Shown piece after piece: positions 33,746-58,448 of a stretch of DNA of 64,000 nt; within the stretch, counting starts at the first letter, position 1; the number at the start of each line of letters is the position of its first letter. The stretch is from Bdellovibrionales bacterium Ga0074137 (GTDB taxonomy: Bacteria; Bdellovibrionota; Bdellovibrionia; Bdellovibrionales; JAMPXM01). The stretch lies in contig LNDT01000018.1 in the NCBI GenBank assembly GCA_001464715.1, forward strand, positions 19,625 through 83,624, in the 5' to 3' direction. The translations under genes and the position numbers were made by a program. The notes under the pieces are model-generated. The model saw nothing but the letters and a program-made list of their open reading frames with translations. It ran no database searches and was not told the origin of the DNA.

Positions 33746-35206
33746 CTACTTTTTGAGGATAGCCTTTGGCAGTAAGCCGTCGGTGTAGCCACCACGGCGA
33801 AGCTCGCGGGGATGTTTGTAATTTACGAAACGTCCTTCATCGACCAAGAATTCACCCTGGAACGACTTCTCTGGAAGATCGTAAAGATTTGCTTCCGCGC
33901 GAACAATTGTGGCTGTGAGTTTGTCAGCGGTGACAGTTTTCTTAAATGTGACGGCCGAAGGCATCGAATCAACTTCATATGTTCCGGTTTCGATAACTGA
34001 AGAGTCATCTGCTAAGCGAAGGATCTGTTTTGGTCGCGAGCTCGAGTTCGGTTTTTCGACGCGGACTTCATCTTTCGTCAGAATCCACTCAAAGATCTCT
34101 GGTGACGAAGCGGTTTTGTAGCGAGTGAGCGCTGAATCACCCAAGGACTCTTTTGCGTAAACTTTTATGACTCGAGTCCCAGCGGGAAGAAGGTCTTGAA
34201 GAAACGCAATGGCGCGGTTTTCAACGCGTGTGCAGCCAAAACTGCGCGGGTCCGAATAGAACTGAGCCAGCTGAGATTTAGAAAGTTGAATGAAAGAGTC
34301 TTTGTCGGCGCCCCAACCAAGTGTTCCATGAGTCCACTGAGCATCGGCATTAGGTCCGATCTTAGCGGTGTACCATCCGAAAGCTCCACGCACGAGACCT
34401 TTGGATTTGTCGCTTGGGTTTGGCATCAGATATTTTTGAGTCCAGGCTTCAAGTCCCGCGCCCGGCATTGGGACCGACGCAAGCTTCGCATCGTACCAAG
34501 ATGGAAAAAGTCCCTGCGAATCCTGGTAGAATTTGATCCACTTTTCAATCTTGTAACTGCCAAGAGACGTGCGGCGTGTTTTCGCAGGATCATTTTCTCC
34601 TGCAATCATATCTGTTTCAAAAATCAAGCGATGAGGCGCGCCAGGTGACGTGGCGACCTCGTAAACACGCAGTTTTTCGGTCGCGATATTTTGGATCATA
34701 ATGTAGCGGTCCGCATTTGATTGTTCCGCCGTGATAGCGACGGGCGTCTTCTTCAAGTACTTAAGCGGTACGTAAGCCTGTTTGACTTTCGCTGGTGTTT
34801 TCTTAGGAACCTGGGCCGCCTTGGGCGCAGGTGTCTGGGCCACTCGTGGCGGTACAGGAGCCGAGTTGTCGTTAAACTCCACACGCACGACCTGATCTGG
34901 TCCGACGGGTGCCGGATCGACGATGCGAACGGGTTCATTTCTTTCAAGAACCTCTGTTGTGAGCTCTGGATTTTCATCGGGAGTGGTTCGTGTTCTCAAC
35001 CGGTCGGGAGCTACGTACGCGGTATCGCCAACTTCAGCGTCGCCGGGCCGAATGTCGCCAACAACTGTTTCAACGGCAACGTCGCCCGTGTTGGGAGCCT
35101 GAACTTCGCGCCATTCCGATTGTCCGCAAGCGCCAAGTACTAGAGCCAAGGCAGAGCCAATGAGACCCGAAGTCATATTTGTCATTTTCATCTTTTTCAT
35201 TTTCAT
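33746..35206 (-). CDS. L,D-transpeptidase-like lipoprotein (YkuD-type catalytic motif)
   Basis: Lipobox LVLGACGQ. WTHGT ... SFGCTRVEN resembles the YkuD H...S-x-G-C-x-R-x-x-N motif, although the His-Cys spacing is longer than usual. Confidence 0.7.
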   Translation of the reverse strand: MKMKKMKMTNMTSGLIGSALALVLGACGQSEWREVQAPNTGDVAVETVVGDIRPGDAEVGDTAYVAPDRLRTRTTPDENPELTTEVLERNEPVRIVDPAPVGPDQVVRVEFNDNSAPVPPRVAQTPAPKAAQVPKKTPAKVKQAYVPLKYLKKTPVAITAEQSNADRYIMIQNIATEKLRVYEVATSPGAPHRLIFETDMIAGENDPAKTRRTSLGSYKIEKWIKFYQDSQGLFPSWYDAKLASVPMPGAGLEAWTQKYLMPNPSDKSKGLVRGAFGWYTAKIGPNADAQWTHGTLGWGADKDSFIQLSKSQLAQFYSDPRSFGCTRVENRAIAFLQDLLPAGTRVIKVYAKESLGDSALTRYKTASSPEIFEWILTKDEVRVEKPNSSSRPKQILRLADDSSVIETGTYEVDSMPSAVTFKKTVTADKLTATIVRAEANLYDLPEKSFQGEFLVDEGRFVNYKHPRELRRGGYTDGLLPKAILKK

Positions 35207-35412: not shown

Positions 35413-35970
35413 ATGTCGACAACAAGTGCTGCCAGTGAAAATTGTGTTTGTGGAAGTGGTCTTGAGTTTTCGAAATGTTGTGAGCCTTATCTTTCTGGCG
35501 ATAAAAATCCGCCGACGGCCGAAGCTCTTATGCGGTCTCGTTACGTCGCCTATGTGCAGGCAAACATCAGCTACATAAAAAGCACTTTAGCGCCTGAAAA
35601 ACGCAAAGAGTTCGATGAAGCCGGTGCTCGCGAATGGGCCACTAAATCGAAGTGGCTTGGACTTGAAATTATGAGCACCAAGCAAGGGCAGGCCGGCGAT
35701 AAAAAAGGCGTTGTTGAATTTACGGCCATTTACAAATTTAACGGTAAAAAAATTGGACATCACGAAGTCGCAGAATTTCGCCGCGATGAAAAAGACGATC
35801 GTTGGTACTTTGTCGATGCAGAGTCTCACGAGCACGCCGACGGCCAGGGGCATCACCATCACCATGCGCCGACGGCTCCCGTCGTTCGCGACCAACCCAA
35901 AGTTGGCCGCAACGATCCATGCACTTGTGGAAGTGGCCTGAAGTACAAAAAGTGTCATGGCGCCGCCTGA
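35413..35970 (+). CDS. ychJ: YchJ-family protein (SEC-C motifs flanking a UPF0225 domain)
   Basis: [13 protein letters not shown] ... [10 protein letters not shown] at the N-terminus and [16 protein letters not shown] at the C-terminus. I chose the ATG at 35413. Confidence 0.85.
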
Positions 35971-36838
35971 TCTGAGTTCTATGAATCTCACCGAACGAAC
36001 TTGGACAGAGGCTTCTTGGGTTTCATTTGATACTGAAACCAGCGGACGTTACCCGATAGAGAGCGAAATCTGTGAGATTGCGGCCGTCAAGTGGCAGGGG
36101 GGACGAGAGGTTGATTCCTTTTCGTCTCTCGTGAAGCCGACACGCCAAATGTCTGAGCAAGTGATCCGCATTCACGGCATCACCAATGAAATGGTAGCGA
36201 CGGCTCCGAGTCTAAAAGAAGTCCTCCCAAAATTTTTAGAGTTTATTCGAGGCTCTGTTCTACTCGCTCACCACAGTCAGTTTGATCTTGGCTTTGTGGC
36301 GGCCGCACTTGAAGACTGTGGGCTGGAACTTCCCGAAGAGCCTACGATCTGCACGTCACTTTTGGCGCAAGCAACTGTGCCTGAGACCGTGAATCACAAG
36401 CTTCAAACATTAGTTCCTTTTTTTAATGTGGATCCCGGACAAGCGCACCGAGCGCTGGATGATGCTCGCGCCTGTTTGAATGTTGCACTTCGCATTTTTG
36501 AACGATTGCAGAATCAATCAGCGACGCCGCTCACGGTGATGGACATTTCAAACCGGATGCTTCGACGGAACACGACCGATCAAGGTCCGATGTATTTCTC
36601 GAGATTTTCGATTTCAGAGTTGCGGAAGGATCCATCGATCGAAAAGTTTATAGCTGCGATTCGAAGTGGTCAGCCTGTGCAGCTCACTTACGCAGGCGGG
36701 AGTCGCCCCGGTCAGCCGCGCCAGATTCAACCGGTGGGTCTTATACGGCAGCTAGATGGCGACGCTTTGGTCGCCGTCGAAGACGGCGATATTATTGCCA
36801 AAAGATATTGGCTTAAGAGCGTTCAGTCGATCGTTTGA
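35957..36838 (+). CDS. DEDDh 3'-5' exonuclease (DnaQ/epsilon-like) with an extra C-terminal domain
   Basis: Exo [10 protein letters not shown]. Exo [14 protein letters not shown]. Exo [12 protein letters not shown]. The C-terminal 100 aa or so (PVQLTYAGG...RQIQPVGL...KRYWLKSV) resemble a WYL-type beta domain. Confidence 0.85.
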
Positions 36839-37841
36839 GTGGCCTGACATTCGAACCCGAACTTGGGTTCGTCGGTTCGATCGTCGGGGGATTGGGCGAA
36901 ACAGGTTCTTCGGTAACAACGACAACTTCTGTGAGTGTCTGTTTTAATATTTGATTTTCAATCACTTGCTGGCTCAAACGTGCGGCGATATTTTCGAGAT
37001 GTTTAAACTCATCGCCAGCGCGAAGCTTGAGCGTCCGCGGTTTTCCTGCCGCCAAATCATCGAGGAATTTTTCAAAAGCATACAGCGGACCTGCGATGCG
37101 ACTCGATAGAACACGACCCACCAAAAAGAGGACTGCGGCAAATGCGACACTCACAATGGCAAACGTCATGACGAACGGAGCGAGGTAGTGATCGAGGAGC
37201 TTTTGGTTGTTTCCCACCAAATCGATGATTGTGACTCTCAAAAAAGTGTACGAGAAAACGCCGGCAATCAAAGCAAAACCAAGTCCAACACCTGTCAAGA
37301 TGAAGCAGTACCGAAGCTGAAAGCGGACATTGATCCACATTCTTTTTCGAGTGTTGTCGGCGGGCCACAATATTTCTGACTCTCGCACAAGAGCAATCGC
37401 GATCATCGCATAGCCAACCCACTGTAATGCATCAGCGAGGTTGAAGGCCGGTGTTGCATTTTGCGGGGATCCGATGAGTAAAAAGTCGATCACGTAGCCG
37501 TTGATGATCCGGTCCGTAACGTTCCCAAGAATTCCGCCCAACAAAACGCTCATTCCGGAGCGAAGCAAAAGTGACTTGATCGGAAGGAGGTACTGAATAA
37601 TGGCGAACGAAAATATGAGAAACGCGCCACCTGTCGAAAGCGTCACGATGCGAAGAACGGCGGGAAGGTCACTAAAAAGTCCAAGCATGGCGCCGTGGTT
37701 GTGATGAAGCACGAAGCCAAAAGGTCCAAAAAACTGAAGACCACGAATGCCCTCAGCAAAATTTTTCGTAACCTGGTCGATACCCCAAGTAAAAAACAAT
37801 GGGAATAGAACTATCAACCAATCCAATCGACGTAGCTGCAT
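36813..37841 (-). CDS. signal peptidase II (LspA) paralog fused to 2 TM helices and a HAMP-like domain
   Basis: LspA motifs IDQVTKNF, GNVTDRIINGYVIDFL and PAFNLADA, with both catalytic Asp present. Two further TM helices follow, then RIAGPLYAFEKFLDDLAAGK...GDEFKHLENIAARLSQQV, which fits a HAMP pattern. Confidence 0.75.
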   Translation of the reverse strand: MQLRRLDWLIVLFPLFFTWGIDQVTKNFAEGIRGLQFFGPFGFVLHHNHGAMLGLFSDLPAVLRIVTLSTGGAFLIFSFAIIQYLLPIKSLLLRSGMSVLLGGILGNVTDRIINGYVIDFLLIGSPQNATPAFNLADALQWVGYAMIAIALVRESEILWPADNTRKRMWINVRFQLRYCFILTGVGLGFALIAGVFSYTFLRVTIIDLVGNNQKLLDHYLAPFVMTFAIVSVAFAAVLFLVGRVLSSRIAGPLYAFEKFLDDLAAGKPRTLKLRAGDEFKHLENIAARLSQQVIENQILKQTLTEVVVVTEEPVSPNPPTIEPTNPSSGSNVRPLKRSTERS

Positions 37842-37942: not shown

Positions 37943-39475
37943 CTATTTTTTCTGGACCTTCGTCAATGACGTGAAATCCCCGTTCTTTGATGGTGCGTAG
38001 TCTTGTACGCGTGAGCTGGCGACGGCGACCTCAAAGTCGTACCAGAGCGGGATCATTGGAAGCTCCTGATAAACGACACGCTGAACTTTTTTGTAGTGTG
38101 TGATTCGCCGGCGAACATCCTCAATCGCTCGGCCCGTATCGACCAGTTTATCAATTTCAGGATTCGAATATGAACCGCGATTTCGTCCCTTGGGAGGTAC
38201 TTCTTGCGAATGAAACGCAGTTTTATAAATGTCAGGATCCGTCGTTCCAACCCATTTCATAGTGGCCAGTTGGAAATTTCCTTGGTCCATGTCTTTATAA
38301 AACGTGGCCCATTCAAAACTTTGAAGTTTCACATTGAGACCCGCGGCTGTCAGCTGATTGGCCAAGACCTTCCCATTTTCTACAGCTTGAGTAGAATTGG
38401 ATGTCTTTAAAATGACCTCTTTCCCTTTAAGGCCGCTGGCTTCGATAAGCAGTTTGGCCTTCTCAAGATCGAACGAGGGCGGAGTGAGTGAAACGTCGTG
38501 ATAGGGATTGATGGGGGATAGAATACTTGTCGCAGCTTGCGCCAAGCCTTCGAGTTTAAACCGAATAATTTCATCGCGATTAATGGCTAGCGACAGGGCC
38601 TGCCGCGATTCAAGCCTCTTAAACGTCGGATCTTTGAGATTCACCAACATGTAAGTCATAGAGAGACCTGGATACTTAAAGACTTGAAATCCGCCCTTGG
38701 CCTCGATTTCTGTTACTTTCGCAGGAGGTAGCTCTTGTTGGACAAGGTCGAGTTCGCCCTTCATCAATTTTAAAAACCGCGTGTTGTCTTCGCGCACGAT
38801 TTTGAAAACAAGATTTTTCATTTTCGGCGGCGAGTAAGTGTTGAGCGGATTGAGCCGCAGACGAATTTCATTGGCATCCGAAGAGACGAAAGAAAAAGGA
38901 CCTGTTCCGATTGGAAGATTTCTAAAATCGTCGCCTTTTTCTTTGACGATTTTTGCGGGCATTAATTTGACAGGTGTCAGGTCTGTAAGGAGTGTCGCTG
39001 AGTACTGCTTCAATTTAATTGTCAGTTTGCCACCGGCGGGTCCGTACTCAACTTGATAAGACTCGATCGCCTCCAGTGAGCTAGCAAATCGCCCGGATTT
39101 TCGGAAGGACTCTAGAGAAAACTCGAAATCTTCTTTCGTTACCGGTAGCCCTTCTGGCGAGCCGTCATCAAACTTTAGTCCAGGTCGCAGAGTGAACGTG
39201 TAGACCAAATTTTTATACGACCACTGAGTCGCCGCTTCGCCGATGATTTCAAGATCCGGTCCCAGACGCACGATGGAAGAGAAAAGTAGGTTCGTGATTC
39301 GCATTCCGCCAGCGTCCATCGCATTGCGAGGATCTAAAGTCGACGGTGCAGCCGACAGACCAACGTAGAGAGTCGAATCGTCGTTTTTAGACTTTTTTGT
39401 GCAGCTCACCAAAGTCACGAGGGCGAGCATTGTCAGGATGGCTTTAAGGAATGAGCGCGTCTTGTTTGTCGTCAT
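37943..39475 (-). CDS. ABC transporter substrate-binding lipoprotein, family 5 (peptide/nickel, OppA/DppA-like)
   Basis: Lipobox LVSCTK. LYVGLSAAPSTLDPRNA ... TFTLRPGLKFDDGSP is typical of SBP_bac_5. Confidence 0.85.
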   Translation of the reverse strand: MTTNKTRSFLKAILTMLALVTLVSCTKKSKNDDSTLYVGLSAAPSTLDPRNAMDAGGMRITNLLFSSIVRLGPDLEIIGEAATQWSYKNLVYTFTLRPGLKFDDGSPEGLPVTKEDFEFSLESFRKSGRFASSLEAIESYQVEYGPAGGKLTIKLKQYSATLLTDLTPVKLMPAKIVKEKGDDFRNLPIGTGPFSFVSSDANEIRLRLNPLNTYSPPKMKNLVFKIVREDNTRFLKLMKGELDLVQQELPPAKVTEIEAKGGFQVFKYPGLSMTYMLVNLKDPTFKRLESRQALSLAINRDEIIRFKLEGLAQAATSILSPINPYHDVSLTPPSFDLEKAKLLIEASGLKGKEVILKTSNSTQAVENGKVLANQLTAAGLNVKLQSFEWATFYKDMDQGNFQLATMKWVGTTDPDIYKTAFHSQEVPPKGRNRGSYSNPEIDKLVDTGRAIEDVRRRITHYKKVQRVVYQELPMIPLWYDFEVAVASSRVQDYAPSKNGDFTSLTKVQKK

Positions 39476-39539
39476 GTCTTAAACTTCCCACTCGGTTCTG
39501 TTCGACGCAAGCTCTGGTACTCGTTACACTTTGAGAACG

Positions 39540-40997
39540 ATGAAGATTCTTTTGTTTGTGGCAGCCCTATTTTTTCCAATGCTCATTGCGCCAGCATCTA
39601 ATGGCCAGACGCCACTCGGATCGCGCCTCGAGAAACAATTCAAAGACGCAAAGTTCAAGTCGGGTGAGATCAGCGTCTGGATTGCTGAAGGAGAAACACC
39701 CATCTTCTCAATGGAAAGCAAAAAGCTTTTTATCCCAGCCTCCACTTCAAAGATACCGACAGCCGCGGCGGTCCTGGGGCTTTTACCGCCGGGTCACAAG
39801 TTCAAAACGGTCTTTGCTGTCGATGGGGACACGCCGAACCTTTTGGGCAATCAAACTTTTAAAGGTGGCACTTTAAAAGGGTCCCTCTATCTCATTGGCG
39901 GTGGTGATCCGTCGTTCGTGTCTGAAAGTCTTTGGTTTCTAGTCAACGAACTGCAGCGCTCGGGGTTGACGGAAGTGGATGGAGATCTTGTCGTCGATGA
40001 CTCGCGATTTGATAATGTGCGGTTTGGAGAAGACCGCCAAGACCAGCGTGTCGATCGAGCGTATGATGCACCTCTGGGAGCTATGTCGCTCAATTGGAAT
40101 TCGGTCACGGCTTGGATTCGACCCGGTGGAAAGACGGGAGATCCAGCGGAAGTGTCATTGGATGTCATGAGTCCCTTTCTCCAGCTCCAAAACAGAACGA
40201 AAACTCAAGGTGGCAGCGCTAACTCGGCGCAAGTCGAACGGCTGAATACAAAGACGCCGAAGTCTGCAGAAGTCTTTCTCGCCAGCGGAACTGTCGGGCA
40301 AACGGCCGCGGAGAAAGCAATTTACAAAAGTATTCGCGAGCCCGCTCTTTGGTCTGGTCATGCCGCCGTTCAATTTCTCGCTCAACGCGGCATTCGCGTG
40401 AAGGGAAGTGTCAGAGAGGGTGTCGCGCCAGCGGGAGCTAAAATTCTTGCGACCGCCGAAAGTAAACCTCTCGCTCATATTGTCTCGGATATGATGAAGT
40501 GGTCGAATAATTACGTCGCAGATATGCTGGTTAAAAATCTTTCGGCCGAAGCTGGCGATCGACCCGCAACCACCGCAAAAGGAATCTTGAGGGTTCGAAA
40601 TTACATCGAAAAAACTGCGGGACTCAAACCCGGAACCTATGAATTTCTAAATGGCGCAGGGTTTACGCGCGAAAACAAAATGTCGGCCGAACAACTCGGT
40701 CTCGTTTTAACAGCGATGAGAAGAGATTTTAGAATTTTTCCTGAGTTTTTAACGTCACTCCCGATTTCGGGAATCGACGGGACTTTGCGGAGCCGCTTTC
40801 AAGGCCTCGAGTCTGTCGGTTGGGTTCGTGCAAAATCAGGCTTACTCAACGGCGTCATCGGTCTTGCTGGATACACGGGTGACGAGCATGGAAAGATTCT
40901 GACCTTCGTATTTTTGTTCAACGGAGCGGCCGGTCGGGAAGATGCAGCAAGGCGACTTTTTGACCGCATGGCAAACACACTGGTGATTAACCACTGA
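39540..40997 (+). CDS. dacB: D-alanyl-D-alanine carboxypeptidase/endopeptidase (PBP4, peptidase S13)
   Basis: SxxK as PASTSKIPT. SxN as WSNNYVADM. KTG-like AKSGLLNGV. Signal peptide from the ATG at 39540. Confidence 0.85.
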   Translation: MKILLFVAALFFPMLIAPASNGQTPLGSRLEKQFKDAKFKSGEISVWIAEGETPIFSMESKKLFIPASTSKIPTAAAVLGLLPPGHKFKTVFAVDGDTPNLLGNQTFKGGTLKGSLYLIGGGDPSFVSESLWFLVNELQRSGLTEVDGDLVVDDSRFDNVRFGEDRQDQRVDRAYDAPLGAMSLNWNSVTAWIRPGGKTGDPAEVSLDVMSPFLQLQNRTKTQGGSANSAQVERLNTKTPKSAEVFLASGTVGQTAAEKAIYKSIREPALWSGHAAVQFLAQRGIRVKGSVREGVAPAGAKILATAESKPLAHIVSDMMKWSNNYVADMLVKNLSAEAGDRPATTAKGILRVRNYIEKTAGLKPGTYEFLNGAGFTRENKMSAEQLGLVLTAMRRDFRIFPEFLTSLPISGIDGTLRSRFQGLESVGWVRAKSGLLNGVIGLAGYTGDEHGKILTFVFLFNGAAGREDAARRLFDRMANTLVINH

Positions 40998-42694
40998 TGG
41001 CGAAGGTACAGCAGCCCGGCTTGCGGGGCTTCATTCTAATTGTGATTTTCGAAGTTGCGCTCATGGGCGTCAGTGCATTTCTCATCTCCGGAACGCCATC
41101 GAGAGCCGACGAGTTTGGTGCTGACGGTGGTCCCGAAGTAGCGGCACCAGATGCTGGTTCGGCCGAATTTGGACAACCTCAAGTTTTGTCTGAGGAAGAG
41201 GCCGCGACCGATCCGGAACTTTTCGAAAAGAATTTAGAAATTCTCCCCGAGCGCTACTTGATTCGTTCCACACCGTGGCGTGCTCCGAACTATTCGGGCC
41301 AAGACGGGGCCCTGGGATGGGAGCCCGATCTATTTAAAATTCCCCAGTCCCTTAAGATCAGAGTCGAATTTTGGAAAGGCATCTACTCGAAGTACACAAC
41401 CGACCAAGGTGTTCTCCACGACATCGATGACCTTGGAATCGTGTACGAGGCTTTGGATTTTCAATCCATCATGAGTGACTCGCAGATGTCTTTAAGGTCA
41501 AAGGCTCGTGCTCGAACAAAGCTTGTCGACTCGCGGCGGGCCGACATTTCAAAACGACTGGAACGGCTTTCTCGAATTAAATCTGAAAAAGATTTGAAAG
41601 ACGACATCGACAAAAAACTTTTTTCTCAGTTCGCCCCAGAAAAAGCACAGTACTACTTCCAAAAAAACCGGACGAAGGAGTTAAAGGCTTTGCGATCGAA
41701 GCTTCAAACATCCGCTCGCAGGAAAAAGATCCGATTTCAGCTTGGGCAAAAAGATAAATTCATCCTCGGAATCTACTACTCCGGTCGGTATCTGCGAGAG
41801 ATGGAAAAACACTTTCGAGCCGAACGTCTTCCGATCGAGCTGACCCGACTGCCGTTTGTCGAGAGCAGTTTCAATATTCAAGCGCGCTCACGCGTCGGAG
41901 CGAGTGGTGTATGGCAATTCATGCCGCGAACAGCGAAGCCATGGATGATGGTTAATAAAGATGTCGATGAGCGAAACGATCCCATGGCATCAACGGTCGC
42001 GGCCGCTCGGTTGATGCGGGCTAATTTCGATCGTCTCAAGACCTGGCCGCTGGCACTGACGGCCTACAATCACGGTGCGACCGGCGTCGCTCGCGCCGTT
42101 CGAAAGACCGGAACCAGAGACCTTGCTGTTATCATCGACAATTATTCGACGCGACGGTTTGGATTTGCGTCGAGTAATTTCTATGCCTGCTTTTTAGCGG
42201 CGCTCGCCGTCGAAAGAGAGGCTCGAACTCTTTTGGGTGACGTGAAATGGAGCCTCGAGTTTAACGGAGCAGAAGTTGATATTTCAAAGCCGGCGCGCTG
42301 GAAAACTTTGGTTGATCTTTATGACGGCGAAGCGCCGTTGGCCGAGCTTCAGAATCCACATTTAACTCAGCAAATTAAGAAGCAGAATCGAGAAATTCCG
42401 CGCGGTACATTCGTGCGTGTTCCGGCCTCACGCGCTGAACTGATGCGAGACTTTACAATGGGAAAAATTGCGGAAGTCGAACTGCAGCGTAGAATCGCCG
42501 TGACGCCGATACCGAGGATGGCTGCGGGACCTGGTGGAGAAGAAAGTTTACGCGACAAGATCGGCATTATCAGCGAGGCGGCGAAATCACTTTTGCCACT
42601 CTTGTCTCCGAGTACGGCAGAATCATCGACAAATTCAAGCCCCAGCAGCGATTCCTCTGTCAGTCCGGACGGTGGTGAAGGGTTTCCAGAATGA
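40997..42694 (+). CDS. lytic murein transglycosylase (SLT domain, MltD-like)
   Basis: PFVESSFNIQARSRVGASGVWQFMPRTA contains the catalytic Glu-Ser and the GxWQFM motif, followed by AYNHG. The start overlaps the dacB stop by 1 nt (TGATG). Confidence 0.85.
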   Translation: MAKVQQPGLRGFILIVIFEVALMGVSAFLISGTPSRADEFGADGGPEVAAPDAGSAEFGQPQVLSEEEAATDPELFEKNLEILPERYLIRSTPWRAPNYSGQDGALGWEPDLFKIPQSLKIRVEFWKGIYSKYTTDQGVLHDIDDLGIVYEALDFQSIMSDSQMSLRSKARARTKLVDSRRADISKRLERLSRIKSEKDLKDDIDKKLFSQFAPEKAQYYFQKNRTKELKALRSKLQTSARRKKIRFQLGQKDKFILGIYYSGRYLREMEKHFRAERLPIELTRLPFVESSFNIQARSRVGASGVWQFMPRTAKPWMMVNKDVDERNDPMASTVAAARLMRANFDRLKTWPLALTAYNHGATGVARAVRKTGTRDLAVIIDNYSTRRFGFASSNFYACFLAALAVEREARTLLGDVKWSLEFNGAEVDISKPARWKTLVDLYDGEAPLAELQNPHLTQQIKKQNREIPRGTFVRVPASRAELMRDFTMGKIAEVELQRRIAVTPIPRMAAGPGGEESLRDKIGIISEAAKSLLPLLSPSTAESSTNSSPSSDSSVSPDGGEGFPE

Positions 42695-51886: not shown

Positions 51887-52705
51887 TTACTTAATTTTTT
51901 GCTTGGAGCGAAGCGAGAAGCAACTGAAGTAGGGTTGAGCCATTGAAACGCGGTCCGGAAACATCGCGTTTAAGCAGTCTTTCCATTCCTTTGCTTCGTT
52001 GAGTGCACCAATCTCGTCGCCCTCTGCCAGCTTCTGTTGAGCTCCATAAAAGGAAGCCCAGCAGCTGCGATCCATTGAAACGAGAGGCACTGTATCTGGC
52101 ATCGATCCGGCTGCGAAAGTGCCGATGCGCTCGCGGAACTGGACGCGCCTTTCAGCATCAATAGCCGGTGGGGTTTTTTCGGACGACGTCCCAGAAACAC
52201 TTCCGGAAATGCCCCCACCCGCATTTTGAGTTGTTGCAGCATTTGTCGTGGGCGTTTCTGCGGTCGCGGACGGCGAAGTTGGAGCCACTGTTGGCGAGGT
52301 GTTCGTCGAGTTGCTTGATGGAGTGGTCGATGGATTCGTAAGAGCCGTCGGCAGTTCGATTTCACTCGCAAGTTCGTTTTCAGTGTCGAGCGTAATTTTC
52401 GCAAGCACCGCCAGACGATCTAAACGGTTCATTGGCGTCGGACTGTCGCAGCCTTCAAAGCCGCCAGGCGTGCTGCCAGAGGTACTGGCCGGTTTCTTCG
52501 ATCCTGCCCCAGAGGGTGATGCCGACGGCGAAGGAGAGGGGGCTGGCGAAGGCGACGGCGTTGCCGATACAGATGGTACCGGTGATGGAGATACGGTTTT
52601 CGAGGCGGCGAACCCAGCGCAGGAAACGAGAAGTGTGAGGCTTGCGCCAAGAGCACTGATTCGGTGGAAGGACGACTTCATTTCTGTGGCGTTTCGTGAC
52701 TTCAT
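51887..52705 (-). CDS. lipoprotein, Ser/Pro/Thr-rich, unknown function
   Basis: Lipobox LLVSCAG. PSPSP/TPS low-complexity region. 4-nt overlap with the upstream SLT gene. Confidence 0.6.
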   Translation of the reverse strand: MKSRNATEMKSSFHRISALGASLTLLVSCAGFAASKTVSPSPVPSVSATPSPSPAPSPSPSASPSGAGSKKPASTSGSTPGGFEGCDSPTPMNRLDRLAVLAKITLDTENELASEIELPTALTNPSTTPSSNSTNTSPTVAPTSPSATAETPTTNAATTQNAGGGISGSVSGTSSEKTPPAIDAERRVQFRERIGTFAAGSMPDTVPLVSMDRSCWASFYGAQQKLAEGDEIGALNEAKEWKDCLNAMFPDRVSMAQPYFSCFSLRSKQKIK

Positions 52706-54220: not shown

Positions 54221-55015
54221 CTAGGGCTGATGCGCCTCAGGCCGGAGGGTCCTTCGGAGCTGAAAAGCGCCGAAAAACAAAAGCACGAAACTCATAGCCA
54301 TTGAAATCGTCAGTGGTCCGAAGGCTGGTCCGCGCGGGTCAGCACGCAGAAGCTCCATTGCGATGCGACCCACGCCGTGAAGTGAAATCCATGTGAAAAA
54401 AACCACGCCCGGTTGACGTCGCGACTTTTCTTGCCGGAGGAGCCAAAGGCCTACTGAAAGCTCCCACAAAACCGCGAATCCTTGTGTTGGAAACCGAAAG
54501 GCCAATGGCCAGTCGCAAACCGCGCCAAAGCAGCAACCCGTCAGCACACACGCCATCCGTCCGCCGGCATAGCCAAACGCTGCGACTGGCGAAAAAAAAT
54601 CGAGCCACTTGAGGATCAGAGATTTGTCGGCCTTTTTCCACCGAAGCATCGCCAAGATGGTGGCGACGCCTCCGGCCGCTCCACCCATCCAAACAAATCC
54701 ACCGCTGGCGACATCGAACACGCGCCACAGATCCTCGGCGTAGTACCGGGGTTCTTCCCAGACGATATGAAGAAGGCGGGCACCGAGGAAGCCACCGATC
54801 ATTGCACCGATAAAAAGGTCGAGGGCACTACTTGTGCTGAGACCATTTTTTTGGAAGATCGGACGCTCAGATCTTTTAAAAATAAAAAAAGCGCAAAGCG
54901 ACAAGACCAGACTAACGACAACGAAGTAGCTCTGTAAGCGAAAGTCGCCAATTTCGATCCAGGGAAGAAATCCTGACGTCGAGTGAACGTGCGATTCGAT
55001 ACGCGCCCCGCTCAC
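54221..55015 (-). CDS. lgt: prolipoprotein diacylglyceryl transferase
   Basis: Polytopic protein. GGFLGARL and GRMACVLTGCCFG motifs. Positioned after lspA with a 4-nt overlap. Confidence 0.9.
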   Translation of the reverse strand: MSGARIESHVHSTSGFLPWIEIGDFRLQSYFVVVSLVLSLCAFFIFKRSERPIFQKNGLSTSSALDLFIGAMIGGFLGARLLHIVWEEPRYYAEDLWRVFDVASGGFVWMGGAAGGVATILAMLRWKKADKSLILKWLDFFSPVAAFGYAGGRMACVLTGCCFGAVCDWPLAFRFPTQGFAVLWELSVGLWLLRQEKSRRQPGVVFFTWISLHGVGRIAMELLRADPRGPAFGPLTISMAMSFVLLFFGAFQLRRTLRPEAHQP

Positions 55016-55527
55016 GTCGCCTTAGATTCTTCAGTCGCGTCAGGAGCGCGCTTGGTCCGCGTCAGCTCGATGTAAAGTAAAACGGCGACGCCGACGACAA
55101 TGGCACTATCGGCAATGTTGAACGCGGGCCAAGTGTAGGATTTCTGAATGTGAAAATCTAAAAAATCGATCACATAACGAAAGCGAATGCGGTCGATGTA
55201 ATTTCCAATTGCTCCGCCGAAAACCATCGACAGTGAGACGACGCTCCATCGATCGGACTCCGCCACCGAACGGAAGATTGCCAAAATAATCAAAAGTGCG
55301 ATGGGAGGCATGGAAAGAAAAAAGATCTCTCGAAATGAGGGGTGGCTGTCGGCCAAGAAACCAAAAGCAGCGCCGTAGTTTCGAACATACGTCAGATTAA
55401 AAAAGCCTTGGATCACGTCGATGGACTCGTGAAGCTGGAAGTGAGTGTGAACGTACATCTTAGTCGCCTGATCGAAGGTCACGATAGCGCCGGCGATGGC
55501 TGCGAGGATGAGATACTTCAGTTTCAC
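55012..55527 (-). CDS. lspA: lipoprotein signal peptidase II (canonical copy)
   Basis: FDQATK, NYGAAFGFL, GGAIGNYIDRIRFRYVIDFLDF and WPAFNIADSAIVVG. The GTG at 55527 overlaps the ileS stop (GTGA). The tracked start is 55560. Confidence 0.9.
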   Translation of the reverse strand: MKLKYLILAAIAGAIVTFDQATKMYVHTHFQLHESIDVIQGFFNLTYVRNYGAAFGFLADSHPSFREIFFLSMPPIALLIILAIFRSVAESDRWSVVSLSMVFGGAIGNYIDRIRFRYVIDFLDFHIQKSYTWPAFNIADSAIVVGVAVLLYIELTRTKRAPDATEESKAT

Positions 55528-58379
55528 AAGTCGTCCTTTTCCGTAAGCGCCGTCGAACACTTTCCACAGACGGTCGGGTGCTTTTTATCAGCACCGATTT
55601 CCTCACTCCAGTACCAGCAGCGCTCGCACTTTTCGCCCACAGCGTGTTCGGCGTTAATACCAAACTGTCCCACGTGAAGTTGAACTTGTGAAACAATAAA
55701 GAACTCGGGCAGCAAGGCTTCGTACTTTTTCAGCGCGGCCGCTTTTTCTCCGTCGGCCGTGATTTTGATGAGAGCATCAAGGCCCGACCCGATTGTTTTG
55801 GTCTGGCGCAGCTCCTCAAGTTTCTTAGTTACATCCGAGCGAACTGAAAAAAGCTCGCTCATTTCTCGGTCGAGAGCCTCATTGTCCCATTTGGAATCAG
55901 GCTTTGGGAACTCGCGCAGAAAAACGCTCTCGGACTTCGAACCGGGGAGGTAGCTGTAAGTTTCCTCGGCCAAAAACGAAGTGATGGGCGCCATGACACG
56001 AGTCAGGGTTTCTGCAATCGTGTAAAGGGCGGTTTGCGCCGAGCGACGTTCAATGCCGTCCCTCTTGAAGGTGTAAAGACGGTCTTTCAGCATATCCAGG
56101 TAACCCGCCGAAAGTGCGACGGTGAAGTACTGGGTCAGCGCGTGATAGACCTTGTAGAACTCGTAGCTATCAAAGGCCGTCGTCGCTTCACGGATCAGGC
56201 CGTTCAGACGACCCAATGCCCACTGATCAAGGAGAGTCATCTTCTCGAACGGGACAGAGTCTTTCACCGGATCGAAATCAGAAATATTGCCAAGGAAAAA
56301 CCGCATCGTATTTCTAAAGCGACGATACGTCTCGGTGACGCGGTCGAAACTTTCTTGGCCCGACGCCATGTCTTGACCGAAGTCGACATAGGAACACCAA
56401 AGCCTCAGAATTTCAGCGCCAGATTTTTTTGTCATCTCGACCGGATCGAGAGCGTTCCCCAGCGACTTTGACATTTTTCGCCCCTGGGCATCGTTGACGA
56501 AACCGTGGGTGACGAGCGCCTTGAATGGAGCTCGTCCTTCGGTCGCCATCGAAGCAAGAAGTGACGTCTGAAACCATCCGCGGTGCTGATCGCTGCCTTC
56601 AAGATAGATATCGGCTGGGTACTCCATTCCGTCGCGCCGCTTTTGAACTGCAGACCATGCGACACCGGAATCGAACCAAACATCTAAGATATCTTTTCCG
56701 CGCGTAAACTCGGTGCCGCCGCACTTCGAGCAGGGCAGAGGTTTCCCGTCTTTCGACTTCATGAAGTCAGATTCGGGATGCGCGTGGTAGGCCTCGATGC
56801 CGCCTTCTTTTTCGATCGCATCGGCCACACGGTCCATGACTTCGGCATCAGCCATAATGTGCTTGCAGGGCTTTCCAGCGACAACAGCGTTACATTCAAA
56901 AACGGGAATCGGAACACCCCAGATGCGTTGGCGCGATAAGCACCAGTCCGGACGATTCTCGATCATCGCGCGGAGACGCGCTTCCCCCCAAGCGGGGACG
57001 AATTTGATTTTTTCTATTTCTTTAAGAGCTCGGGCTCGCATTTGAGCGGCCTCTTTTGAAATCGTACGACCGCTATCGTCTTTTGCTCCTTCGACGAGGT
57101 CCATTCCAAGAAACCACTGCGGCGTCGCCCGGAAGATCAACGGAGTTTTAGAGCGCCAGTTGTGCGGGTACTGATGAACGAACTCTGTGAAGGAAAGAAG
57201 CGATTTATTGTCGCGCAAGCGCTGAACCACTAACGGGTTCGCGTCCCAAATTTTTGTGCCTAAATATTCGGGAACTTCTTCGGTGTATTTTCCTGCAGCA
57301 TCCACCGGTGACAAAACTTTAAGTCCGTACTGAAGGCCCACCCGGTAATCGTCTTGTCCGTGGCCGGGAGCCGTGTGAACCGCGCCCGTTCCTGCTTCCA
57401 TGGTCACGTGGGATCCGAGAACAATCAGCGAATCGCGATCATAAAAGGGGTGTCGCGCGTTCATTTTTTCAAACGCAGAACCCTTCGCAGTGACTCCTGT
57501 TGGAGTCAGCGTGAGGCCGGTGTTTTTCTCGACAGCTTCCTTGAGGCCTACGGCCAAAATTAAGATCCGGTCACCGGCATCAAAAAATCCGTAATCAAAA
57601 TCGGCATTCAGCGCCAATCCTAAGTTTGCAGGTAATGTCCAAGGTGTTGTCGTCCAGACCGCAAATCCCACGGGCTTTGATCCAAACTTTTCGGCGTCTT
57701 TGGCGAAAGCCGTCTTATGAGCCGCCGTAAATGCCGCCGTAAAATCCATGGTGAAGTAAATCGATGGCGACTTGTGTTCGTGGTACTCGACTTCAGCTTC
57801 AGCGAGCGCCGTCTGCAAAGTCGGGCACCAGTAAACGGGCTTCTCGCCACGGTACAATGTTCCTTTTCGCAACGCGCGCGCTAAGACGCGCACTTCTTCC
57901 GCCTCGTAGGCCGGATCCATTGTCAGGTAGGGATTGGACCAGTCGGCCATAACTCCGAGGCGACGAAATTGCTCACCTTGGTGCGAGACCCACTTCGCCG
58001 CTTCCGCGCGGCACATCGACCGAATTTCTGAATCCGATTTTTCTTTACGTTTTGCGCCCAGCGCTTTTGTGACATTCATCTCGATCGGAAGACCGTGACA
58101 ATCCCAACCCGGAATGAACGTCGCCGAAAACCCAGCCATGTTTTTGTATTTGACCGTGAAATCTTTGAGGCACTTGTTCAGAACGTGGCCCGTGTGAATG
58201 CTCCCGTTGGCGTAAGGTGGGCCGTCGGGCATCGTGAATGGCGTTCGGCCTTTGTTTTTGGCCATGAGCTTTTGATAAATCTGCTTCTTATCCCAATCCG
58301 CAATCATCAGCGGCTCGCGCTCGGGCAAATTCGCTTTCATCGGAAAGTCTGTTTTCGGAAGCTGGATAGTTTCTTTCAT
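55524..58379 (-). CDS. ileS: isoleucine--tRNA ligase
   Basis: PPYANGSIHTGH (HIGH motif), KMSKSLGN (KMSKS motif), and a C-terminal zinc motif CERCW...CGKC. The ATG at 58379 has an AAGAGG RBS. The tracked GTG start is 58409. Confidence 0.95.
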   Translation of the reverse strand: MKETIQLPKTDFPMKANLPEREPLMIADWDKKQIYQKLMAKNKGRTPFTMPDGPPYANGSIHTGHVLNKCLKDFTVKYKNMAGFSATFIPGWDCHGLPIEMNVTKALGAKRKEKSDSEIRSMCRAEAAKWVSHQGEQFRRLGVMADWSNPYLTMDPAYEAEEVRVLARALRKGTLYRGEKPVYWCPTLQTALAEAEVEYHEHKSPSIYFTMDFTAAFTAAHKTAFAKDAEKFGSKPVGFAVWTTTPWTLPANLGLALNADFDYGFFDAGDRILILAVGLKEAVEKNTGLTLTPTGVTAKGSAFEKMNARHPFYDRDSLIVLGSHVTMEAGTGAVHTAPGHGQDDYRVGLQYGLKVLSPVDAAGKYTEEVPEYLGTKIWDANPLVVQRLRDNKSLLSFTEFVHQYPHNWRSKTPLIFRATPQWFLGMDLVEGAKDDSGRTISKEAAQMRARALKEIEKIKFVPAWGEARLRAMIENRPDWCLSRQRIWGVPIPVFECNAVVAGKPCKHIMADAEVMDRVADAIEKEGGIEAYHAHPESDFMKSKDGKPLPCSKCGGTEFTRGKDILDVWFDSGVAWSAVQKRRDGMEYPADIYLEGSDQHRGWFQTSLLASMATEGRAPFKALVTHGFVNDAQGRKMSKSLGNALDPVEMTKKSGAEILRLWCSYVDFGQDMASGQESFDRVTETYRRFRNTMRFFLGNISDFDPVKDSVPFEKMTLLDQWALGRLNGLIREATTAFDSYEFYKVYHALTQYFTVALSAGYLDMLKDRLYTFKRDGIERRSAQTALYTIAETLTRVMAPITSFLAEETYSYLPGSKSESVFLREFPKPDSKWDNEALDREMSELFSVRSDVTKKLEELRQTKTIGSGLDALIKITADGEKAAALKKYEALLPEFFIVSQVQLHVGQFGINAEHAVGEKCERCWYWSEEIGADKKHPTVCGKCSTALTEKDDL

Positions 58380-58448
58380 CGGCCAAGCACCTCTTGATAA
58401 GGTACCCACGCTAGCATACGGCGAATTGATTCGTAAGAGCTGTTCGGA

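What the first reader, a model, noticed from the sequence alone, without database searches (positions are those of the whole stretch)
36813..37841. Second LspA paralog fused to two extra TM helices and a HAMP-like domain with no output module
The window holds a canonical ileS-lspA-lgt operon (lspA at 55012-55527) plus this 342-aa protein. Its first 165 aa or so keep the LspA signature, including both catalytic aspartates (GNVTDR and FNLADA). It then continues with two further TM helices and a segment that fits the HAMP pattern (RIAGPL...AAGK...GDEFKHLENIAARL). HAMP domains normally relay signals in receptors. A HAMP attached to an aspartyl signal peptidase suggests regulated or specialised lipoprotein processing, or a peptidase-derived sensor. 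I am not aware of a characterised example. Extra lspA copies are known in myxobacteria in the context of antibiotic TA/globomycin-type resistance, so a resistance or decoy role is an alternative.
Basis: partly seen in the sequence, partly recalled or inferred. Interest (0 to 1): 0.55.

Follow-up and report, generated by a model that had tools for sequence, protein, structure and literature searches.

The report
LspA paralog with HAMP-like tail
This is a real, uncharacterised second lipoprotein signal peptidase, conserved across the predatory Bdellovibrionota, that keeps every catalytic residue and carries two extra membrane helices plus a cytoplasmic helix-connector-helix that looks like a HAMP domain by layout and predicted fold but fails all standard HAMP profile tests.

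Summary
The 342-aa ORF (36813-37841, minus strand) is real and is one gene. The whole architecture lies in a single ORF in 72 of the 80 Bdellovibrionota species loci retrieved (190 species genomes matched). It is an old paralog (35% identity) of the canonical lspA in the window's ileS-lspA-lgt operon. Residues 1-158 are a Peptidase_A8 domain (E=3e-20). All 14 published LspA signature residues are invariant, including the catalytic dyad D119/D137. Then follow two TM helices, a helix-connector-helix of about 50 aa, and a non-conserved disordered tail. The HAMP label is only partly supported. In favour are position after a TM helix, heptad register, Pro, connector Gly, two connector leucines, a D-E pair, the AF2 layout and a Foldseek match to WalK. 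Against it, Pfam HAMP never hits, family profiles find no HAMP structure, hhalign is marginal (P about 0.01-0.02), and the family's own signature departs from DExG. Most relatives end right after the hairpin. An orthologue in the same slot adds a SAM methyltransferase, and a paralogous subfamily adds a CxxC redoxin domain. Best reading: an active, specialised LspA with a HAMP-like dimerisation or coupling scaffold. Function is untested and undescribed.

The parts
36813..37841 (-). Whole gene: LspA paralog with C-terminal extension (342 aa plus stop)
   Evidence: ORF list. A 100% identical database protein, P0001, and more than 120 full-length homologues. Start context.
37368..37841 (-). Residues 1-158: Peptidase_A8 (LspA) domain with four TM helices and a beta-cradle
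   Evidence: Pfam E=3e-20. PDB LspA sequences E about 3e-10. Foldseek to 5dir/6ryo. All 14 published signature residues are invariant in A1.
37485..37487 (-). Codon of catalytic Asp119 (VIDF)
   Evidence: Aligns to the first dyad Asp of LspA. D in 82 of 91 diverse family members.
37431..37433 (-). Codon of catalytic Asp137 (FNLAD)
   Evidence: Aligns to the second dyad Asp. D in 89 of 91.
37317..37367 (-). Residues 159-175: basic cytoplasmic linker (WPADNTRKRMWINVRFQ) with near-invariant Q175
   Evidence: 4 K/R in 21 residues. W159, P160, R165, W169, F174 and Q175 are invariant in A1. Q175 is Q in 90 of 91.
37248..37316 (-). Residues 176-198: extra TM helix 5
   Evidence: Hydropathy. AF2 helix 172-209. 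Conservation 0.81.
37182..37247 (-). Residues 199-220: short periplasmic loop (conserved YTFLRVT motif)
   Evidence: Y198, T199, V203, T204 and G210 are invariant in A1. Conservation 0.76.
37113..37181 (-). Residues 221-243: extra TM helix 6, continuous with the following cytoplasmic helix
   Evidence: Hydropathy. AF2 helix 213-264; helix 54-105 in the module-only model, pLDDT 89.8.
36954..37112 (-). Residues 244-296: HAMP-like helix-connector-helix (S246, R248, G251, P252, G266, L271, L273, R274, D277, E278, L282, E283)
   Evidence: Alignment A1/A2. hhalign register against validated HAMPs, with empirical P of 4/200 and 2/200. AF2. Foldseek WalK, prob 0.98. Negative profile tests.
36816..36953 (-). 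Residues 297-342: variable, low-complexity, predicted disordered tail; no domain
   Evidence: Conservation 0.14. pLDDT below 50 for 321-342. The median tail in family representatives is 5 residues.
37943..39475 (-). Upstream same-strand gene: SBP_bac_5 solute-binding lipoprotein (lipobox LVSC); a facultative neighbour
   Evidence: Pfam E=4.7e-65. Directly upstream in 26 of the 59 loci with enough upstream DNA.
39531..42694 (+). Divergent PBP4 (Peptidase_S13) and SLT lytic transglycosylase pair; the most conserved neighbours
   Evidence: Pfam. Present in 59 and 57 of 80 loci. Also present in L001, L003 and L085.
35957..36838 (+). Convergent RNase_T-family exonuclease gene, overlapping the 3' end by 26 nt; a conserved neighbour
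   Evidence: Pfam E=1.9e-36. Present in 53 of 80 loci.
54221..58409 (-). Canonical ileS-lspA-lgt operon (housekeeping LspA at 55012-55560)
   Evidence: Pfam tRNA-synt_1, Peptidase_A8 (1.1e-41) and LGT. 35% identical to the fusion's LspA domain.

Best explanation
The gene encodes a catalytically competent, specialised second lipoprotein signal peptidase (an 'LspA2') that is a conserved component of Bdellovibrionota genomes.

Its N-terminal 158 residues form a normal LspA aspartyl-protease fold with the active site at the periplasmic membrane face. This is shown by sequence and model. From the cytoplasmic C-terminus of that fold the chain crosses the membrane twice more (TM5 out, TM6 in). TM6 continues without a break into a cytoplasmic helix, followed by a connector of 11-16 residues and a second helix. 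This layout is shown by prediction and conservation.

I infer that this hairpin pairs with the same hairpin of a second subunit into a HAMP-like parallel four-helix bundle. The protein would then work as a homodimer, with the bundle acting mainly as a dimerisation and coupling scaffold rather than as a classical signal relay.

In this window's lineage, and in most relatives, nothing follows the hairpin. In an orthologue at the same genomic slot it tethers a SAM methyltransferase. In a paralogous subfamily it tethers a CxxC redoxin domain.

The likely role is processing of a subset of prolipoproteins, or processing under particular conditions, alongside the housekeeping LspA of the ileS-lspA-lgt operon.

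My estimated likelihood of each step:
- real single gene: 0.97
- active peptidase: 0.75
- TM hairpin plus helix-connector-helix fold: 0.85
- HAMP-like dimeric bundle: about 0.5
- true evolutionary HAMP homology: about 0.4
- specialised or regulated substrate processing: about 0.4

The overall confidence of 0.45 refers to the whole chain taken together.
For: Peptidase_A8 E=3e-20. PDB LspA matches by sequence and by fold.

All 14 highly conserved LspA residues listed in PMC6952399 are invariant in 43 homologues. They are largely retained in 91 diverse representatives, with D137 in 89 of 91 and D119 in 82 of 91.

The extension is as conserved as the enzyme domain (0.66-0.81 against 0.80).

The module is found in 190 species genomes, and the top 80 are all Bdellovibrionota. 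72 of 80 loci hold it in a single ORF.

AF2 models are confident: pLDDT 80.8 for the full protein and 89.8 for the module alone.

The HAMP register matches at Pro, Gly, HR-like leucines, D-E and the a/d heptads. This is judged against cited HAMP criteria from PMC3570549.

The hhalign score exceeds 196-198 of 200 column shuffles.

Foldseek's only probable hit is the TM-HAMP kinase WalK: 81 columns, rmsd 2.0 A, prob 0.98.

There are recurrent weak NCBIfam hits to TM-HAMP receptor models: CtpM in 11 of 29, PorY in 6, AdeS in 3 (best 7.8e-5).

The methyltransferase-bearing orthologue sits in the identical SLT<PBP4<FUS>RNaseT< slot. The redoxin subfamily begins 10-15 residues after the hairpin.

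Most representatives (81 of 97) end at the hairpin.
Against: No experiment exists. Activity, dimerisation and substrates are all inferred.

Pfam HAMP never hits, even at E<=10. Family profiles find no HAMP chain in the PDB. The reverse control with a small HAMP profile does find remote HAMPs such as NarQ, HtrII and Aer. An 8-sequence HAMP HMM run unfiltered never reaches the module in 85 loci. hhalign probability is below 3%.

The family signature differs from canonical membrane HAMPs. Position 280 is never Gly, so there is no DExG. The aligned Glu is E in only 49 of 91. The near-invariant R274 and Q175 have no conserved HAMP counterpart. The connector is 1-2 residues shorter than in the reference HAMPs.

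The NCBIfam receptor hits have E-values similar to plainly spurious TM hits.

The Foldseek E-value is only 0.65, the target is itself an integrative model, and the aligned WalK residues were not shown.

LspA crystallises as a monomer; a dimer is my inference.

A few family members have Ser at the D119 position.
Confidence: 0.45

Rival explanations
1. True HAMP-mediated signalling. The LspA-like domain, or the TM5-TM6 pair next to it, senses substrate load, lipid state or an inhibitor in the membrane. The HAMP then relays this to the cytoplasm. The target would be the fused methyltransferase or redoxin domain in some lineages, and a separately encoded partner in this one. Alternatively a cytoplasmic cue could allosterically gate the peptidase.
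For: The topology is the same as TM2-HAMP in receptors, and the Pro, Gly and D-E register matches. WalK fold match. Recurrent weak hits to MCP and kinase TM-HAMP models. In L003 a response-regulator-GGDEF gene sits in the same operon-like array directly upstream. Cytoplasmic domains follow the hairpin in some relatives.
Against: 81 of 97 representatives have nothing after the hairpin. The domains that do follow are metabolic enzymes, joined by a short linker rather than a continuous signalling helix. There is no DExG, the motif reported as needed for coupling to TM signals. The periplasmic loop is only about 22 residues. No conserved partner gene was found: the SBP is adjacent in 26 of 59 loci, and the GGDEF gene was seen once. 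Profile tests for HAMP are negative.
Confidence: 0.2
2. The C-terminal extension is a family-specific membrane and helical appendage unrelated to HAMP. It might be a plain amphipathic hairpin that packs on the LspA core or on the membrane surface, or that docks a partner. It would have no four-helix-bundle dimer. The HAMP resemblance would be convergent or due to chance.
For: Every standard profile test fails. hhalign probability is below 3%. The family has its own distinct signature: Q175, R274 and D277 near-invariant, with no Gly at 280. The outputs seen are non-canonical.
Against: A 16-residue non-helical connector with two conserved hydrophobics is what a parallel, HAMP-type arrangement needs, and is far longer than an antiparallel hairpin needs. 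The register coincides at five independent landmarks. The empirical P is about 0.01-0.02. The only probable structural match is a TM-HAMP kinase.
Confidence: 0.3
3. A self-protection, resistance or decoy LspA against globomycin- or myxovirescin-type inhibitors, like the extra lspA copies of antibiotic producers.
For: Producers do carry extra lspA copies: M. xanthus has lspA1-4, with lspA3 and lspA4 in the myxovirescin cluster (PMC8689077). Bdellovibrionota share habitats with such producers; this last point is my own inference.
Against: The gene is found in 190 species genomes across the phylum, in a conserved housekeeping-type neighbourhood (PBP4, SLT, RNase_T, SBP) with no biosynthetic cluster. 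All 14 residues that the inhibitors contact are unchanged. That argues against an insensitive target.
Confidence: 0.05
4. An artefact: two genes joined by a sequencing or assembly error, or a pseudogene.
For: None found.
Against: The same continuous ORF occurs in 72 of 80 independent species genomes, including complete Bdellovibrio genomes, and in more than 120 protein clusters. Conservation is high across the junction.
Confidence: 0.01

Closest known systems
Canonical lipoprotein signal peptidase LspA (Peptidase_A8; structures 5DIR from P. aeruginosa, 6RYO/6RYP from S. aureus)
   Same: The four-TM aspartyl-protease fold, and all 14 highly conserved residues including the catalytic dyad.
   Different: It is only 35% identical to the housekeeping copy in the same window and scores below NCBIfam's LspA equivalog cutoffs. 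It carries a conserved C-terminal extension of about 140 residues (two TM helices plus a cytoplasmic hairpin) that canonical LspA lacks. It is not in the ileS-lspA-lgt operon.
Membrane-associated HAMP domains of sensor kinases and chemoreceptors (Af1503, Tsr/Tar, EnvZ, NarQ, WalK)
   Same: About 50 residues directly after a TM helix on the cytoplasmic side. Pro at the start of helix 1, a/d heptads, Gly starting a long connector with two hydrophobics, and an acidic pair at the start of helix 2. The predicted fold matches WalK TM-HAMP.
   Different: It is not detected by the Pfam HAMP model or by any profile search. There is no DExG glycine, the Glu is variable, and R274 and Q175 are family-specific invariants. 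The connector is shorter. It is attached to a peptidase rather than a sensor domain. It is followed by nothing, or by a redoxin or methyltransferase, rather than a kinase, MCP or cyclase.
Extra lspA paralogs of antibiotic producers (M. xanthus lspA1-4; Streptomyces)
   Same: More than one lspA per genome, with one copy next to lgt.
   Different: As far as the cited review describes them, those are plain LspAs, and two of them lie in a biosynthetic cluster. This one has a conserved extra module and a phylum-wide conserved non-biosynthetic context.

Membership tests
LspA / Peptidase_A8 | Match to the family profile above the curated threshold | tested here: met
   Pfam PF01252 scores 73.3 bits against a cutoff of 25, E=3e-20. 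Note that it falls below the NCBIfam equivalog cutoffs: TIGR00077 scores 42.9 against 73.95. It is therefore a divergent member.
LspA / Peptidase_A8 | Catalytic aspartate dyad plus the other 12 highly conserved residues (PMC6952399) | tested here: met
   D22, K26, N48, G50, G103, N107, D110, R111, V117, D119, F133, N134, A136 and D137 are all invariant in 43 sequences. They are mostly retained in 91 diverse representatives.
LspA / Peptidase_A8 | Four-TM fold with beta-cradle | tested here: met
   The AF2 model matches 5dir/6ryo: Foldseek E=2.6e-7, target TM-score 0.69-0.74.
LspA / Peptidase_A8 | Cleaves diacylglyceryl-prolipoprotein; inhibited by globomycin | not testable with these tools
   Needs biochemistry or complementation.
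HAMP domain (PF00672 and clan) | Match to HAMP sequence profiles | tested here: not met
   There is no Pfam HAMP hit at E<=10 in the protein, the isolated segment, 43 close members or 29 diverse members. Family profiles against the PDB find no HAMP chain. An 8-sequence HAMP HMM finds nothing. As a positive control, the HAMP profile does find NarQ, HtrII and Aer.
HAMP domain (PF00672 and clan) | Profile-profile similarity in the correct register | tested here: inconclusive
   hhalign aligns P-P, G-G and DE-DE, with P=0.015-0.04 and probability below 3%. 4 of 200 and 2 of 200 column shuffles reach the real score. The reference set could not be broadened.
HAMP domain (PF00672 and clan) | About 50 residues, two amphipathic heptad helices joined by a semi-structured connector with two conserved hydrophobics, directly after a TM helix (PMC3570549) | tested here: met
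   Core positions are L253/F256/L260/L263 and F279/L282/A286/L289. The connector runs from G266 to G276, with L271 and L273. AF2 gives helix 213-264, loop 265-280, helix 281-309.
HAMP domain (PF00672 and clan) | [quoted passage not shown] | tested here: inconclusive
   P252 is present in 90 of 91 and D277 in 89 of 91. E278 is E in only 49 of 91. Position 280 is K/Q/R/A/S among the commonest residues, and Gly is not among them.
HAMP domain (PF00672 and clan) | Homodimeric parallel four-helix bundle | not testable with these tools
HAMP domain (PF00672 and clan) | Links an input to a signalling output (kinase, MCP, cyclase, phosphatase) | tested here: not met
   There is no output in this protein or in 81 of 97 representatives. 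The others carry AhpC/TSA-Redoxin or a methyltransferase.

The most novel reading that the evidence does not exclude
The family is a new class of membrane-embedded bifunctional or allosteric enzymes. In it, a lipoprotein signal peptidase domain is coupled to the cytoplasm through a divergent HAMP-type four-helix bundle. Lipoprotein-processing state, or occupancy by signal peptide or inhibitor, would be transmitted to a cytoplasmic methyltransferase or redoxin domain, or in the short forms to a trans-acting partner. Alternatively the cytoplasmic state would gate the peptidase. That would be the first HAMP-like relay attached to a protease, and the first regulated step in lipoprotein maturation.
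Probability: 0.15. Interest if true: 0.75.

Novelty: new variant of a known kind. Interest (0 to 1): 0.5.

Why it matters
LspA is treated as a minimal, constitutive, essential four-helix enzyme and as an antibiotic target. This family shows that a whole phylum of predatory bacteria keeps a second, fully equipped LspA. It carries a conserved transmembrane and cytoplasmic appendage, and some relatives extend that appendage with redox or methyltransferase domains. If the appendage dimerises or regulates the enzyme, lipoprotein maturation would have a previously unknown control or specialisation layer. The family would also be a natural test case for how far the HAMP fold extends beyond receptors. 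Bdellovibrio is genetically tractable and cultured strains carry the gene, so the question can be tested directly.

Tried and rejected
1. Pfam and NCBIfam scans for HAMP on the protein, the isolated segment, 43 close members and 29 diverse members gave no HAMP hit. The NCBIfam hits to CtpM, PorY and AdeS recur. Their E-values overlap with clearly spurious TM-driven hits (FlhB-like, RsxD, CLC, ActD), so I count them only as weak support.
2. Family profiles A2 and A4 against PDB sequences gave no HAMP chain. The best hit of A2, 5-oxoprolinase 6yra at E=0.0028, vanished with the more diverse profile and is taken as chance.
3. I mined about 0.85 Mb of fetched Bdellovibrionota DNA for HAMP domains to build a broader local HAMP profile. 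Almost none were present.
4. I spent a homology search on the HAMP reference alignment to broaden it. It returned mostly enterobacterial fragments, and only one new sequence fell below 60% identity.
A2 worked.
7. Exact look-up of the window protein's own contig gave nothing on record.
8. 'Module plus AhpC without LspA' proteins (P0165, P0183) turned out to be gene calls truncated at contig ends, not a separate architecture.
9. SBP_bac_5 as an obligate partner was rejected. It is adjacent in only 26 of 59 loci.
10. Rfam and the promoter/terminator scans found nothing above background.
Full report
**1. What is there**

The minus-strand ORF 36813-37841 encodes 342 aa, starting at an ATG preceded by a G-rich stretch. 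An identical protein and more than 120 full-length homologues (59-100% identity, 300-385 aa) exist in public data. Several are named Bdellovibrionales or Pseudobdellovibrionaceae 'signal peptidase II'. A scan of species-representative genomes with two module-specific peptide patterns found relatives in 190 genomes. The best 80 are all Bdellovibrionota: Bdellovibrionaceae, Pseudobdellovibrionaceae, Bacteriovoracaceae and Oligoflexia, including the complete genome of Bdellovibrio sp. HCB-110. In 72 of those 80 loci the whole architecture lies in one ORF. A sequencing-error fusion is therefore excluded.

**2. The peptidase half**

Pfam Peptidase_A8 matches residues 17-152 (E=3e-20). The sequence aligns to the crystallised LspAs, and the AF2 model (pLDDT 80.8) superposes on 5dir/6ryo.

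The 14 highly conserved LspA residues listed by Olatunji et al. (PMC6952399) map by motif to D22, K26, N48, G50, G103, N107, D110, R111, V117, D119, F133, N134, A136 and D137. All are invariant in a 43-sequence alignment. Across 91 representatives clustered at 50% identity, D137 is kept in 89 and D119 in 82.

The catalytic dyad is D119/D137.

The window also holds the canonical ileS-lspA-lgt operon. The two LspA domains share 35% identity, so this is an old paralog. It scores below NCBIfam's LspA equivalog cutoffs, which marks it as a divergent branch.

**3. The extension**

- A basic linker (residues 159-175, near-invariant Q175) comes first.
- Two hydrophobic helices follow, at about 176-198 and 221-243, separated by a 22-residue loop with a conserved YTFLRVT motif.
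- TM6 runs on as a helix into the cytoplasm to residue 264. Residues 265-280 are non-helical. A second helix covers 281-309.
- A model of the module alone is more confident still (pLDDT 89.8).
- Conservation of the extension (0.66-0.81) equals that of the enzyme domain (0.80). The last 46 residues are unconserved (0.14) and predicted disordered.

Since LspA ends in the cytoplasm and the flanks of TM5 and TM6 are K/R-rich, the hairpin is cytoplasmic. This is an inference from the positive-inside rule and the counts.

**4. Is it HAMP?**

The cited criteria (PMC3570549) are: about 50 aa; AS1 and AS2 heptad helices; a semi-structured connector with two conserved hydrophobics; a parallel four-helix dimer; and, in membrane-associated HAMPs, a highly conserved DExG motif and a less conserved Pro before AS1.

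*In favour.*
- The position, length and layout fit.
- P252 is present in 90 of 91.
- Core positions L253/F256/L260/L263 and F279/L282/A286/L289 follow a 3-4 spacing.
- G266 starts the connector, and L271 and L273 are conserved in it.
- D277-E278 sit where AS2 begins.
- hhalign of a 148-sequence module alignment against eight HAMPs (validated by Pfam) aligns exactly these landmarks. Its score is reached by only 4 of 200 (local) and 2 of 200 (global) column shuffles.
- The only Foldseek PDB match with high probability is WalK, a TM-HAMP histidine kinase: prob 0.98, 81 columns, rmsd 2.0 A. 81 columns equals TM6 plus the hairpin, but the aligned WalK residues were not shown, so this reading is an inference.
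- Weak hits to TM-HAMP receptor models recur in diverse members.

*Against.*
- Pfam HAMP never hits.
- Family profiles find no HAMP structure, although the reverse control finds remote HAMPs.
- An HMM of the eight HAMPs never reaches the module.
- hhalign probability is below 3%.
- Position 280 is not Gly, E278 is variable, and R274 and Q175 are family-specific invariants.
- The connector is 1-2 residues shorter than in the references.

*Verdict.* This is a HAMP-like helix-connector-helix. Membership of the HAMP family is inconclusive.

**5. Relatives change the picture**

An exhaustive search with residues 160-300 found 749 representatives at E<=1e-3 and 155 at E<=1e-10. Of the 97 listed representatives with an intact LspA N-terminus:
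- 81 end a median of 5 residues after the hairpin.
- 10 continue, after only 10-15 residues, into an AhpC/TSA-Redoxin domain with a YRYxxC[PA]xC motif. The motif is present in 15 of 15 sequences, counting fragments.
- 6 continue into an extension of about 330 aa that is a Methyltransf_23 domain in at least three.

The methyltransferase form (P0137) lies in the same slot as the window's gene, SLT< PBP4< FUS> RNaseT<, so it is an orthologue with an added domain. The redoxin form is a coherent subfamily in other contexts. No member was seen with a kinase, MCP or cyclase. The hairpin is therefore usually terminal, and where something follows it is an enzyme. That fits a scaffold or coupling role better than a classical relay.

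**6. Context**

The commonest arrangement in 80 loci is SLT< PBP4< [SBP_bac_5>] FUS> RNaseT<. PBP4 is present in 59, SLT in 57 and RNase_T in 53. The SBP is directly upstream in 26 of the 59 loci with enough upstream DNA. The window has the SBP version. One relative has a response-regulator-GGDEF gene between the SBP and the fusion gene. No biosynthetic cluster is nearby. This argues against the producer-type resistance role known for M. xanthus lspA3 and lspA4 (PMC8689077). No Rfam element or convincing promoter or terminator was found.

**7. Mechanism proposed**

*Shown:* an intact LspA active site, two extra TM helices, a conserved cytoplasmic helix-connector-helix, no output domain, and conservation across a phylum.

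*Inferred:* the protein is an active prolipoprotein signal peptidase with a specialised or conditional substrate range. Its hairpin forms a HAMP-like parallel four-helix bundle with a second subunit. The bundle holds two peptidase domains together and, in some lineages, tethers a cytoplasmic enzyme.

*Rivals:* true HAMP signalling (0.2), a non-HAMP appendage (0.3 for the identity of the module), resistance or decoy (0.05), and artefact (0.01).

**8. Novelty**

Literature searches found no description of an LspA with such an extension, and none in Bdellovibrio. Databases call it plain 'signal peptidase II'; JGI calls one redoxin form 'lipoprotein signal peptidase/peroxiredoxin'. It is a new variant of a known enzyme family. 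It is moderately interesting, because it is robust, widespread, uncharacterised and testable. Its most exciting reading, a HAMP relay on a protease, is not established.

Noticed in passing
P0147/P0148/P0176 and about 28 clusters; loci L087, L090, L091: A subfamily fuses the same LspA plus 2TM plus hairpin to a cytoplasmic AhpC/TSA-Redoxin domain with a conserved YRYxxC[PA]xC (CxxC) motif, starting 10-15 residues after the hairpin. It lies in other genomic contexts, directly downstream of a gene with no Pfam hit (455-672 aa).
   Followed up: partly
L085 7001-8941 (P0137, 646 aa): An orthologue in the identical SLT<PBP4<FUS>RNaseT< slot carries a C-terminal Methyltransf_23 domain after a stretch of about 120 aa with no Pfam hit. 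Sister proteins P0125 and P0130 (624-636 aa) have an extension of about 330 aa with no Pfam hit at all.
   Followed up: partly
L003 6039-6995: In one 64%-identical relative, a response-regulator-GGDEF gene is inserted between the SBP_bac_5 gene and the fusion gene, ending 5 nt before the fusion's start. This may link it to c-di-GMP signalling in that lineage.
   Followed up: no
window 37943-39475 (-) and 33746-35206 (-): The upstream SBP_bac_5 protein (...LVSC...) and the nearby YkuD L,D-transpeptidase-like protein (...LGAC...) both have lipoboxes. They are candidate local LspA substrates.
   Followed up: no
window 36813-36838: The 3' end of the fusion gene overlaps the 3' end of the convergent RNase_T-family exonuclease gene by 26 nt. 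This convergent pairing is conserved (53 of 80 loci, median ORF gap about 10 nt).
   Followed up: partly
window 51887-54108 (-): Next to lgt lie two low-complexity proteins. One is 468 aa and ends in (AAKP)n repeats. The other is a 272-aa S/P/T-rich protein with a lipobox-like LVSC.
   Followed up: no
alignment A1, columns about 395-405 (C-terminal ends of close relatives): The tails are otherwise unconserved, yet many end in a short [ST]-E-[KR] (often followed by T-G-[TS]) motif. This could be a short linear docking or degradation motif.
   Followed up: no
PDB 9a5d_A (WalK) versus alignment A5: The 8-sequence HAMP profile recovers NarQ, HtrII and Aer but not WalK at E<=0.01. WalK is the only probable structural match of the module. 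This suggests that some HAMPs escape small sequence profiles.
   Followed up: no
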